64,000 nucleotides of DNA from Escherichia coli. Its GTDB lineage: Bacteria > Pseudomonadota > Gammaproteobacteria > Enterobacterales > Enterobacteriaceae. Of the stretch, positions 2,098 to 4,002 are shown piece after piece (the first letter of the stretch is position 1; the number at the start of each line of letters is the position of its first letter). A model generated the notes under the pieces. That model did not search any database. It saw only the letters and a list, made by a program, of their open reading frames with translations, and was not told the origin of the DNA. Made by a program: the position numbers and the translations under genes. The stretch lies in NCBI RefSeq assembly GCF_030013595.1, contig NZ_CP122768.1; one strand, 5' to 3'.

Positions 2098-2580
2098 ATG
2101 GAGAATCATATTGATGCTTATTTATTGGTGAGAACTACGTTCCATGGCAGGAGTTCATCAATACGGTTGGAAGGTTATTCCGGCAGTACGCTCAGGATAT
2201 GGCGCAGATACTCTTCCGGATCAATGTCGTTCAGAAGGCAAGTGCCGATAAGCCCATACAACAGTGCACTGCGCTCGCCGTCGAAGAACATAAAGTTTTT
2301 ATTTCCGAGACAGATGGCACAAAGGGCTTTTTCCGCGGCATTATGTCTGCCTCCGCCTGACCGTCAACACTGTAATAACAGAGTGCGCCCCACTGATTCA
2401 GTACACAGCTGAACCATTCTCCCAGTCTGGATTTTTGGACAGCGTGGCATTTTTCTCCACCATCCACGCATGCAGTGAGTCCAGTAACAGTTTGCTCTTC
2501 CTCTGCCTGACCACAAGATGTTCTGGTTCTGGCATACTGAATTTGGCCACCTGAGCATAGGTAATATGCTCACCTTAGAA
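2098..2580 (-). mobile_element. IS66-family transposase 3' remnant, frame-broken
   Basis: Minus-strand translation in shifting frames gives ...LHAWMVEK..PKIQTG..., ...QWGALCYYSVDGQ...IMPRKKPF... and ...DPEEYLRHILSVLPE..RIDELLPWNV, resembling the conserved C-terminus of IS66 TnpC. Confidence 0.5.
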
Positions 2581-2590
2581 CAACACAGAT

Positions 2591-3288
2591 GCTCCAATGA
2601 AAAAAGGAAATTTCAGCGCAGAGTTTAAACGCGAATCCACTCAACTAGTTGTTAACCAGAACTTTACGGTGGCAGGTACCATCCAAAGCTATGGATGTCG
2701 GTCTTTCCACAATGACAAGATAAGTCAAACAACTGCGTAATGAGCATCAGAGCAAAACACCAAAAGCCTCTCTGATGACACCAGAACAAATCGAAATACG
2801 TGAGCTGAGGAAAAAGCGGCAACGTATTGAAATAGAGAATGAAATATTAGAAAAGGCTACGGCGCTCTTGATGTCAGACTCCCTAAACAGTTCTCGATAA
2901 TCGAGAAGCTCAGAGCGCATTATCTGGTGATAGCACTCTGCCATGTGTGCAGGATTCATCGAAGCAGCTACAAAGATTGGAAAAACCGTCCTGAAAAAAA
3001 GACGGTAGACGGGCTGTATTACGTAGTCAGGTAATTGAGCTTAATGGCGGAGCAAGGAACATCGCCACAATTGCAACCCGGAGAGACTACCAGATGGGAC
3101 GCAAGCTTGCTGGCAGTCTCATGAAAGAACAGGGGCTGGTCAGCTGTCAGCCGTTGACCCTCCGGTACAGGCATGGCAGTCATGAACTTGTAGCTATCCT
3201 AAGAACTTGAAGGGCGCTTAGCTGTGACACAGCTAAATCAAGTATGGTGACGTGACCTATATCTGGACTGGTAAACGATGGGGATACC
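2591..3288 (+). mobile_element. IS3-family (IS600/IS911-like) orfA-orfB remnant with stops and frameshifts, 3' truncated
   Basis: orfA-like [25 protein letters not shown]...; orfB-like [40 protein letters not shown]...[27 protein letters not shown]...DVTYIWTGKRW; several in-frame stops. Confidence 0.55.
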
Positions 3289-3477
3289 CGCTTACGCGAG
3301 AGCAATAAGTGGCTGGCCACCATTCTCGATACAAAACTCTGCTGAATAGCAGCGATTTTCCCAGCGTGGTGCGTCTTTTGCATTTTACTGGTTCTGAGTT
3401 ATCAATTATCTGTTCACTAATGACTACTCTAAAAAGTTGTATCAATTTAAGTGATATAGGGAGTCCGGAGATTCACC
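3289..3477 (-). mobile_element. IS2-like left-end remnant (terminal repeat plus degenerate orfA 5' region)
   Basis: Minus-strand sequence TGAATCTCCGGACTCCCTATATCACTTAAAT...TTTTTAGAGTAGTCATT..GAACAGATAATTGAT...ATCGCTGCTATTCAGCAGAG resembles the IS2 left end and orfA start (MID..P.K.RRTT..K) as recalled from memory; abuts the truncated receptor gene. Confidence 0.45.
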
Positions 3478-4002
3478 CTTTTTGGTGATGAAGTTAACAA
3501 TACCGCCAATTGCCTGTGAACCGTACAGTACGGAATATGGACCTTTCACTACCTCAACACGCTCCAGCGCAGACTCATCTATCAACAGTCCCACACCATA
3601 ATTATCTCCGGCGCGCTGATAAGTTACCTCCTGACCATCAATGAGAATTAAAACACGGGAGGATGCTTCGCCACGAATGCGGATTTGTTTACGGCCTGCC
3701 AAGGAGTTGTCTGTTATCTCTACTCCGGGGATGTCCTGCAAATTATCGGCTATGGAGGCATTGGTGGAGTTCTGCAATGTTTGTTGGTCAATAACCTGTA
3801 TAGTCGCCGGGCTTTCCCAAAGGTTGCTTGCCGAACGATTCGTGGTCACGACGAGCGTCTCTTCGTTGCTGATTTTTGTTTCTGAAGAAGTTGCGGTTGC
3901 AGTAGAAACTATCCCAGAAATGCATAATGACAGAGTGGAAAGGATATAAATTCGACAAGGTATATTATATAACATTTCATCCCTCATTAATACAAAGCAC
4001 AA
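3442..4002 (-). pseudogene. TonB-dependent outer-membrane receptor, N-terminal plug fragment (yoeA-like), truncated by IS insertion
   Basis: Signal peptide, TonB-box-like ETLVVT, plug-domain motifs (IRIRGEASSRVLILIDGQEV, VEVVKGPYSVLYGSQAIGG); the frame runs into the IS2-like terminal repeat and stops; no barrel domain follows. Confidence 0.6.

What the first reader, a model, noticed from the sequence alone, without database searches (positions are those of the whole stretch)
2098..4002. Nested IS graveyard truncating a TonB-dependent receptor gene
Within 1.9 kb there are a frame-broken IS66-family transposase 3' end (minus strand), an IS3-family orfA/orfB remnant with several stops (plus strand), and an IS2-like terminal repeat with orfA start (minus strand). 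The last abuts the N-terminal plug fragment of a TonB-dependent receptor whose frame runs into the IS end. K-12 has an analogous IS2-disrupted yoeA at the edge of prophage CP4-44, but the mosaic here looks different and more degraded. No intact transposase remains, so the elements are immobile scars. IS family assignments rest on remembered sequence and are approximate.
Basis: partly seen in the sequence, partly recalled or inferred. Interest (0 to 1): 0.35.

Follow-up and report, generated by a model that had tools for sequence, protein, structure and literature searches.

The report
Dead insertion-sequence scars beside truncated yoeA
This stretch of an E. coli chromosome holds three broken insertion-sequence fragments fused to the first 500 bases of a dead outer-membrane receptor gene (the K-12 pseudogene yoeA); it is an ordinary decay scar that RefSeq already annotates in hundreds of genomes.

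Summary
All four pieces are present: an IS66-family 3' end (2088-2525, minus), an IS911-like IS3-family 5' part (about 2526-3288, plus), an IS2-like left end (3289-3475, minus), and the first 500 nt of a TonB-dependent receptor (3975-3476, minus). No transposase frame is intact.

The locus is not new. The same 2.2 kb occurs at 99.9-100% identity in 190 of 5,426 complete E. coli genomes, and NCBI's PGAP pipeline annotates every piece there as a pseudogene.

The receptor fragment is the ortholog of K-12 yoeA, not an analogue of it. K-12 has the identical receptor/IS2-like junction and the same 187-bp IS2-like remnant. K-12 also carries a later intact IS2 and an IS5, and its right flank is different.

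Only one of the three joins looks like a true nested insertion (IS911-like into IS66). The other two are deletion fusions. The receptor's present end most likely comes from a 1.2-kb deletion that also removed 13 bp of the IS2-like terminal repeat. Strain EH10-18-47 keeps receptor nt 1-1709 against the complete repeat, and ST131 keeps an intact 715-aa receptor.

Verdict: inert scars, already known, low interest.

The parts
2088..2525 (-). IS66-family remnant. It comprises the right terminal repeat (GTAAGCG at 2088-2094) and about the last 136 codons of the transposase gene tnpC. Relative to ISEc23 it has a 12-bp deletion, two 1-bp deletions and a TGG-to-TAA stop.
   Evidence: 83% identity to an annotated ISEc23 copy, starting at its end. 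Pfam IS66_C 32.3 bits. PGAP labels the equivalent of window 2175-2535 'IS66 family transposase, frameshifted, incomplete'.
2526..3288 (+). IS911-like (IS3-family) remnant equivalent to IS911 nt about 6-788. It holds the left terminal repeat, orfA and the first part of orfB. The left edge is uncertain within 2524-2530.
   Evidence: 85% identity (664/785) to annotated IS911, with an 18-bp and a 5-bp deletion, several 1-bp indels, a TGG-to-TAA stop and a G inserted in the A-run at the orfA/orfB overlap. PGAP labels the equivalent of 2597-3287 'transposase, frameshifted, internal stop, incomplete'.
3289..3475 (-). IS2-like left-end remnant: the terminal repeat without its outer 13 bp, plus the start of orfA. 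The ATG has become ATA. Relative to IS2 there are a 1-bp deletion, a 33-bp deletion and a 12-bp deletion near the repeat.
   Evidence: Alignments to K-12 IS2F and to the ST131, EH10-18-47 and FDAARGOS_497 alleles, which carry the full repeat TAGAC(A/T)GGCCCCC (TAGGCTGGCCCCC in FDAARGOS_497). The remnant is identical in K-12 and unannotated there.
3476..3975 (-). First 500 nt of a heme-receptor-like TonB-dependent receptor gene (ortholog of K-12 yoeA). It encodes the signal peptide, a TonB-box-like ETLVVTT and the plug domain. The beta-barrel is absent.
   Evidence: Pfam Plug E = 2.7e-25. 99.8% identical to nt 1-500 of the intact ST131 gene for WP_000966628.1. K-12 annotation of yoeA. PGAP labels 3475-3975 'TonB-dependent receptor plug domain-containing protein, missing C-terminus'.
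3442..3475 (-). Read-through tail: 10 IS-derived codons (ESPDSLYHLN) and a stop codon, which complete a 177-codon chimeric ORF.
   Evidence: Translation. The 177-aa product is on record as a predicted hypothetical protein (P0001).
4011..4029 (.). Fur-box-like sequence TGTAATGATAATTATTTTC (15 of 19 matches to GATAATGATAATCATTATC), 36 bp upstream of the receptor's ATG. It is probably the remains of the receptor's iron-regulated promoter.
   Evidence: Scan. Promoter-like hexamers overlap it on the minus strand. Function is inferred, not tested.

Best explanation
The stretch is a set of non-functional scars at the cobU-proximal edge of the variable CP4-44/yeeX island region of E. coli.

The smallest history that fits the sequences has four steps:
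1. An IS66-family element sat 108 bp upstream of a DeoR-PfkB kinase gene.
2. An IS911-like element inserted into that IS66's transposase gene.
3. One deletion fused the IS911-like element, at about its nt 788, to an IS2-like element, at about its nt 200. This removed the rest of all three elements.
4. A second deletion of 1,222 bp fused receptor nt 500 to nt 14 of the IS2-like terminal repeat.

Point mutations and small indels then degraded what was left.

The result is a 177-codon plug-only ORF and three immobile IS fragments, and I infer that none of them does anything.

K-12 carries the same receptor/IS2-like junction. It differs by a further deletion from the IS911-like edge into yeeP, and by later IS2 and IS5 insertions.

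Shown directly: the identities of the pieces, the junction positions, and the comparison with other genomes. Inferred: the order and nature of the events, and the lack of function.
For: Family identities.

Junctions:
- IS66 homology ends at 2525, and IS911 homology starts at IS911 nt 6.
- IS911 homology ends at 3288, inside orfB, against the inside of IS2-like orfA.
- Receptor homology ends at 3476, and IS2-like homology starts at 3475.

Comparisons with other genomes:
- EH10-18-47 has receptor nt 1-1709 followed by the complete repeat TAGACTGGCCCCC and the same allele of the IS2-like remnant.
- ST131 has an intact 715-aa receptor, six further genes, the complete IS2-like repeat, 26 bp of the IS911-like element and the IS66 remnant.
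- K-12 is 100% identical across window 3674-3285. It then continues into yeeP with a 3-bp GTA overlap.

Signs that the remainder is not maintained:
- intact IS2 insertions split the plug fragment in K-12 and in other strains;
- other strains carry a 1-nt frameshift in the full-length gene.

Frequency: the receptor-nt-500/IS2-like junction is in 559 of 5,426 complete genomes, the IS2-like/IS911-like junction in 443, and the whole 2.2 kb in 190. PGAP annotates every piece as a pseudogene.
Against: The direction of change between the configurations is inferred from parsimony, not from a phylogeny.

A constructed 'ancestor' (ST131 left flank + full IS2-like end + IS911-like part) was found in 0 of 5,426 genomes.

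The window allele and the ST131 allele of the IS2-like end differ by a cluster of substitutions and a 12-bp indel in the first 60 bp. A simple deletion series does not explain this.

Lack of function of the 177-codon ORF is not tested. It keeps a start codon, a signal peptide and a Fur-box-like upstream site.
Confidence: 0.88

Rival explanations
1. The IS2-like element inserted directly into the receptor gene at nt 500 and so caused the truncation seen here.
For: The IS2-like sequence begins with TG (TGAATCTCC), as IS3-family ends usually do, exactly where receptor homology stops. No intact parent element is known that would fix the true end.
Against: Three other configurations carry the same remnant with 13 further bases that match the IS2 left repeat: TAGACTGGCCCCC (EH10-18-47), TAGACAGGCCCCC (ST131) and TAGGCTGGCCCCC (FDAARGOS_497). 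One of them abuts receptor nt 1709. The window copy is therefore clipped. The 3' part of the receptor is not on the other side of the IS remnant.
Confidence: 0.06
2. The orphan IS2-like left repeat is still, or was for a long time, a working end or a recombination hot spot. It would act through IS2 transposase supplied in trans, or through homologous exchange with full-length copies. It would then have produced the different left flanks seen in different strains. On this reading the scar shapes the island's variability rather than being inert.
For: The outermost base of the complete repeat is an exact boundary against three unrelated left flanks: downstream of the yaiO paralog, receptor nt 1709, and downstream of an aspA-like gene. 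The inner IS2-like/IS911-like junction is the same in all three. The ST131 allele differs from IS2 at only two of the first 55 bases of the left end, and IS2 itself is common in these genomes.
Against: No right end is available to pair with this left end. IS3-family elements move by copy-out/paste-in through a circle that needs both ends (established knowledge). No event was observed, and the same pattern can arise from old events that happened when full copies still existed. The window copy itself has lost 13 bp of the repeat, so it is even less likely to be a substrate.
Confidence: 0.15
3. The 177-codon plug-only ORF is expressed under iron limitation. It would act in the periplasm as a TonB-box-bearing decoy or modulator of TonB-dependent uptake.
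For: The start codon, signal peptide, ETLVVTT TonB-box-like motif and complete Plug domain are all kept. A Fur-box-like site (15 of 19) and promoter-like hexamers lie upstream. The same ORF occurs in many genomes.
Against: Identity among the copies reflects recent common descent, not demonstrable selection: there is 1 difference in 500 nt from the intact gene. The fragment is split by an intact IS2 in K-12 and in many other strains without apparent cost. Its C-terminal 10 residues are accidental IS sequence.
Confidence: 0.03

Closest known systems
E. coli K-12 pseudogene yoeA (b4582) at the edge of cryptic prophage CP4-44
   Same: It is the same gene at the same chromosomal place next to cobU. 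It has the identical truncation after nt 500, followed by the identical 187-bp IS2-like remnant (100% over window 3674-3285).
   Different: K-12 has an intact IS2 (IS2F) inserted after nt 306, with a 5-bp duplication equal to window 3670-3674. It also has an IS5 at window 5253-5256. Beyond the IS2-like remnant K-12 continues into truncated yeeP, whereas the window continues into the IS911-like and IS66 remnants and a DeoR-PfkB island.
IS911 (IS3 family)
   Same: 85% DNA identity over IS911 nt 6-788. The remnant has the left terminal repeat, orfA and the beginning of orfB in the same order.
   Different: It lacks the last 460 bp or so. It carries multiple indels and stops, and the A-run at the orfA/orfB overlap is interrupted. 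At 85% identity it may descend from a related element rather than from IS911 itself (ISEc52 is 81% identical).
ISEc23 / IS682 (IS66 family)
   Same: 83-84% DNA identity over the last 440 bp or so, including the terminal GTAAGCG repeat and the IS66 C-terminal domain.
   Different: Only about one sixth of the element remains. There is no tnpA or tnpB, and the frame is broken.
IS2 (IS3 family, IS2 group)
   Same: The left terminal repeat and the start of orfA are recognisable. The fuller alleles in other strains match the IS2 repeat almost base for base.
   Different: It is only about 71% identical to IS2 overall, so it is a distinct relative. No intact copy was found. Here the outer 13 bp of the repeat are missing.
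Heme/hemoglobin TonB-dependent receptors (TIGR01785; PhuR, ShuA/ChuA)
   Same: The intact E. coli ortholog (715 aa, ST131) matches TIGR01785 end to end (E = 1.1e-67) and aligns with PhuR over residues 43-694. A 75%-identical ortholog in another enterobacterial genome lies beside heme-uptake genes: a periplasmic binding protein, a radical SAM protein and a ChuX/HutX-family protein.
   Different: The score of 228.9 bits is below the family's curated cut-off of 316.85. The window keeps only the plug.

Membership tests
IS66 family | Terminal inverted repeat beginning GTAAGCG | tested here: met
   GTAAGCG lies at 2088-2094 and aligns with the end of an annotated ISEc23 copy. Only one end is present.
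IS66 family | TnpC transposase with the IS66 catalytic and C-terminal domains | tested here: inconclusive
   The C-terminal domain PF13817 scores 32.3 bits (cut-off 30). The catalytic domain PF03050 scores only 14 bits, E = 0.033. Just the last 136 codons or so remain, with broken frames.
IS66 family | Accessory genes tnpA and tnpB upstream of tnpC | tested here: not met
   Both are absent. The remnant ends at 2525 against the IS911-like element. This fits a fragment of a family member, not a whole member.
IS3 family (IS911 type) | Terminal repeat, orfA and orfB in order, with similarity to a named member | tested here: met
   85% identity over IS911 nt 6-788. RefSeq labels the matching full copies 'IS3-like element IS911 family transposase'.
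IS3 family (IS911 type) | Slippery A-run allowing the programmed -1 frameshift that makes the OrfAB transposase | tested here: not met
   The window reads TTAGAAAAGG where the IS911 copy reads TTAAAAAGG, so the run is interrupted. orfB is also cut off at IS911 nt 788.
IS2 group of the IS3 family | IS2-type left terminal repeat followed by orfA | tested here: inconclusive
   The repeat is recognisable from TGAATCTCC inward and the orfA start aligns, but the outer 13 bp are missing, the ATG is now ATA, and overall identity to IS2 is about 71%. Pfam finds nothing in the short translated piece.
TonB-dependent receptor | N-terminal plug domain preceded by a signal peptide and TonB box | tested here: met
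   Plug matches residues 54-159 at E = 2.7e-25. ETLVVTT is seen in the translation.
TonB-dependent receptor | C-terminal 22-strand beta-barrel ending in an aromatic residue | tested here: not met
   Receptor homology stops after nt 500. The intact ortholog continues for 548 more residues and ends in ...FVWNF. The window copy is a gene fragment.
Heme/hemoglobin receptor subfamily (TIGR01785) | Score above the curated cut-off for the full-length protein | tested here: not met
   The intact ST131 ortholog scores 228.9 bits against a cut-off of 316.85, although the match is end to end. The substrate is not established.

The most novel reading that the evidence does not exclude
The clipped locus is not wholly inert. 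The 177-codon plug-only ORF keeps its start codon, signal peptide, TonB box and a Fur-box-like upstream site. It could be made under iron starvation and compete for TonB in the periplasm, as a naturally occurring TonB-box decoy that persists in about a tenth of sequenced E. coli.
Probability: 0.03. Interest if true: 0.4.

Novelty: already known. Interest (0 to 1): 0.07.

Why it matters
It matters little. The finding documents ordinary gene decay at the border of a variable island.

The modest gains are bookkeeping:
- The K-12 yoeA truncation and the unannotated 187 bp after it (NC_000913 2070475-2070661) are explained as an IS2-like remnant shared with many strains.
- The left border of K-12's CP4-44 region reads as a deletion scar derived from the arrangement seen in this window.
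- E. coli strains show this heme-receptor-like gene being lost by at least four independent routes.

Tried and rejected
- **Pfam on short IS3-type pieces.** Stop-free translated pieces of the IS911-like and IS2-like parts gave no hits. They are too short and degraded, so family assignment rests on DNA similarity.
- **Constructed ancestor.** A sequence made of the ST131 left flank, the complete IS2-like end and the IS911-like part was found whole in 0 of 5,426 genomes. That search did reveal the EH10-18-47 and FDAARGOS_497 configurations.
- **Search for an intact parent of the IS2-like element.** None was found in E. coli complete genomes. PLSDB plasmids held only hitch-hiking copies of the same mosaic next to IS1, and one Klebsiella record. 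Exact 33-mer and 22-mer scans of GTDB species representatives gave no matches.
- **Protein search with the plug fragment.** It returned only proteins of 303 aa or fewer. The ones examined were frameshifted or stop-interrupted gene calls. The intact 715-aa form was found through RefSeq annotation of ST131 instead.
- **Rfam on the whole window.** Nothing was found in 1-9000, so no riboswitch or small RNA accounts for the region.
- **Literature searches for yoeA.** They found nothing relevant.
- **Search for the window's exact IS1 configuration.** No contiguous match turned up.
- **Rejected ideas.** A direct IS2-like insertion at nt 500 is rejected because the repeat is clipped by 13 bp. 'Different from K-12' is rejected because the junction is identical.

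Full report
**What the window is**

The first 6 kb of the window is E. coli chromosome on the cobU side of the variable region that K-12 annotates as cryptic prophage CP4-44. Window 1980-4200 is 100% identical and contiguous in several complete E. coli chromosomes, for example O157:H16 Santai. It occurs with at least 80% coverage in 190 of 5,426 complete genomes.

In those records NCBI's PGAP pipeline annotates the following pseudogenes (window coordinates):

| PGAP label | Window coordinates |
|---|---|
| IS66 family transposase, frameshifted, incomplete | 2175-2535 |
| transposase, frameshifted, internal stop, incomplete | 2597-3287 |
| TonB-dependent receptor plug domain-containing protein, missing C-terminus | 3475-3975 |

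**Checking the four pieces**

IS66-family piece:
- Window 2086-2525 aligns at 83% (379/454) to an annotated ISEc23 copy.
- The alignment starts exactly at that element's terminal GTAAGCG repeat (window 2088) and runs into the 3' end of tnpC.
- Relative to ISEc23 there are a 12-bp deletion and two 1-bp deletions, and a TGG codon has become TAA.
- Pfam's IS66 C-terminal domain is found in the 38 residues translated from 2178-2291 (32.3 bits, cut-off 30).

IS3-family piece:
- Window 2530-3288 aligns at 85% (664/785) to IS911 nt 6-788. That covers the left repeat, orfA and the beginning of orfB.
- It carries an 18-bp and a 5-bp deletion, several single-base indels and a TGG-to-TAA stop. A G is inserted in the A-run at the orfA/orfB overlap.

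IS2-like piece:
- The reverse complement of 3289-3475 aligns to the left end of K-12 IS2F at about 71% over 168 bp (E = 9e-19).
- The terminal-repeat core is recognisable and the orfA start has changed from ATG to ATA. There are 1-bp, 12-bp and 33-bp deletions relative to IS2.

Receptor piece:
- The ORF from the ATG at 3975 encodes a signal peptide, an ETLVVTT TonB-box-like motif and a complete Plug domain (E = 2.7e-25).
- After codon 167 it reads ten accidental codons of IS sequence and stops at 3442-3444.

No stop-free stretch in 2088-3475 exceeds 112 codons. The IS66 remnant begins at 2088, not 2098. The receptor starts at 3975, not 4002.

**Relation to K-12**

K-12 annotates yoeA (b4582) as two fragments split by IS2F, followed about 310 bp later by the pseudogene yeeP. 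Three facts tie the window to that locus:
- Window 5256-3670 and 3674-3285 match K-12 at 99.9% and 100%.
- The 5-bp overlap at 3670-3674 is the IS2F target duplication.
- The 4-bp overlap at 5253-5256 is the IS5H target.

The window thus shows the state of this locus before those two insertions. The receptor/IS2-like junction and the whole 187-bp IS2-like remnant are identical in K-12 (NC_000913 2070475-2070661) and are unannotated there.

K-12 diverges only at window 3285. There it continues into yeeP at about codon 107 of an intact homolog, with a 3-bp GTA overlap. This reads as a further deletion, running from the edge of the IS911-like piece into yeeP.

**What the intact gene looks like**

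ST131 strain 4433 has an uninterrupted 2,148-nt gene (WP_000966628.1, 715 aa) at the same place next to cobU. The window's fragment is 99.8% identical to its nt 1-500.

The intact protein matches the heme/hemoglobin receptor model TIGR01785 end to end (E = 1.1e-67), but at 228.9 bits it is below the curated cut-off of 316.85. It also aligns with PhuR over residues 43-694. A 75%-identical ortholog in another enterobacterial genome lies beside a periplasmic binding protein, a radical SAM protein and a ChuX/HutX-family protein. That ortholog itself has an in-frame stop. A heme receptor is therefore the best guess for the ancestral function, but it is not established.

**How the mosaic arose**

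In ST131 the receptor is followed by IbrB-like and IbrA-like genes and by a PIG-L/yaiP/LbetaH/yaiO cluster. Next come:
1. the IS2-like remnant with a complete left repeat (TAGACAGGCCCCC TGAATCTCC...);
2. 26 bp of the IS911-like element;
3. the IS66 remnant;
4. the DeoR-PfkB gene.

Strain EH10-18-47 has receptor nt 1-1709 directly abutting the complete repeat (TAGACTGGCCCCC...) of the same allele of the IS2-like remnant as in the window. The same IS911-like and IS66 pieces follow.

Against that configuration the window lacks receptor nt 501-1709 and the outer 13 bp of the repeat, which amounts to one 1,222-bp deletion. Against ST131 it lacks about 8.35 kb. The receptor's present end is therefore a deletion junction, not an insertion site.

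The three joins between pieces differ in kind:
- IS66/IS911-like: this looks like a real insertion, because the IS911-like left end is complete to within about 5 bases.
- IS911-like/IS2-like: this joins two internal positions, so it is a deletion fusion.
- IS2-like/receptor: this is the deletion junction described above.

The IS911-like/IS2-like junction is shared by all configurations examined, so the mosaic formed once. ST131 then lost a further 736 bp of the IS911-like piece.

The direction of these changes is inferred by parsimony. I did not build a phylogeny, and a constructed ancestor was not found in any genome.

**Frequency and signs of neglect**

- The nt-500/IS2-like junction occurs in 559 of 5,426 complete genomes.
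- The IS2-like/IS911-like junction occurs in 443.
- The ST131-type allele occurs in about 1,490 records.

The plug fragment is split by an intact IS2 in K-12 and in many other strains. Other strains carry a 1-nt frameshift near nt 590 of the full-length gene. The receptor is thus being lost by several independent routes, which argues against any retained function for the fragment.

**What remains unexplained**

The outermost base of the complete IS2-like repeat is an exact boundary against three unrelated left flanks: downstream of the yaiO paralog, receptor nt 1709, and downstream of an aspA-like gene. Yet the element was already cut to about 200 bp in all of them.

The ST131 allele differs from IS2 at only two of the first 55 bases of the left end. 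The window-type allele has clustered changes and a 12-bp deletion in the same stretch.

Either of two things could explain this: exchange with full-length copies inserted elsewhere, or action of IS2 transposase on the orphan end. I could not distinguish them.

No intact parent of the IS2-like element was found:
- in E. coli complete genomes;
- in plasmids, which held only hitch-hiking copies of the same block next to IS1 and one Klebsiella record;
- in GTDB species representatives.

**Verdict**

The interpretation needs three corrections:
1. The locus is orthologous to K-12 yoeA and has the identical junction.
2. Only one of the joins is a nesting.
3. The truncation point is a deletion that also clipped the IS end.

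The locus is ordinary, widespread and already annotated, so interest is low.

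Noticed in passing
window 758-1525 (with 749-757 and 1526-1534): An apparently intact IS1 (insA and insB ORFs open) with a 9-bp target duplication CTACTTTTG sits inside the DeoR-PfkB fusion gene, 560 bp from the finding. Strain EH10-18-47 has an IS1 at the very same nucleotide, but in the opposite orientation and of another IS1 variant.
   Followed up: partly
window 1-757 and 1535-1979, minus strand: The DeoR-HTH/PfkB kinase fusion gene is intact at 405 aa in ST131. 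In the window it is dead twice over: a Q81-to-stop change at 1737-1739, plus the IS1 insertion.
   Followed up: yes
window 4181-4221: A perfect 18-bp hairpin (-38.5 kcal/mol, z = -8.3 against shuffles) lies about 200 bp upstream of the receptor start, at the edge of the area K-12 calls pseudogene yoeH. Rfam finds nothing there.
   Followed up: partly
window 4191-5495: There are more scars between the receptor and cobU. The K-12 pseudogenes yoeH, yoeG and yeeH map here. PGAP calls 5155-5343 an IS4-family transposase fragment and 5352-5495 a cobalamin-biosynthesis protein fragment.
   Followed up: partly
L004-L007 (6001-8147), L008 (6001-8148), L013 (3292-5007): The same receptor is inactivated in different ways elsewhere: a 1-nt frameshift near nt 590 in several E. 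coli, truncation at nt 1709 in EH10-18-47, and an in-frame stop in the ortholog of another enterobacterial genome, where it sits in a heme-uptake cluster.
   Followed up: partly
L017 (plasmid p399-2, CP084536.1, 145608-155810): A chromosomal block (hypT, racemase, C4-dicarboxylate transporter and aspartate ammonia-lyase genes, then the IS2-like remnant at 99% identity) is present on a conjugative IncFIB/IncI plasmid, about 1.6 kb from an IS1. The sequence between the remnant and the IS1 is unannotated and I did not check it. I infer IS1-mediated capture.
   Followed up: partly
L009 7001-7225, L013 5001-5203, L014 5001-5203: The complete IS2-like left repeat forms an exact boundary against three unrelated left flanks in different strains. 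The ST131 allele differs from IS2 at only two of the first 55 bases, whereas the window-type allele does not match IS2 there.
   Followed up: partly
window 9079-46304: The rest of the window follows the K-12 order: four identical-scoring 73-nt tRNA matches (at the spacing of K-12's asn tRNA genes) and a fifth tRNA, plus the small RNAs RseX (37795-37884) and DsrA (46218-46304). The spacing between the tRNAs at 13307 and 27693 gives no sign of a large island.
   Followed up: no
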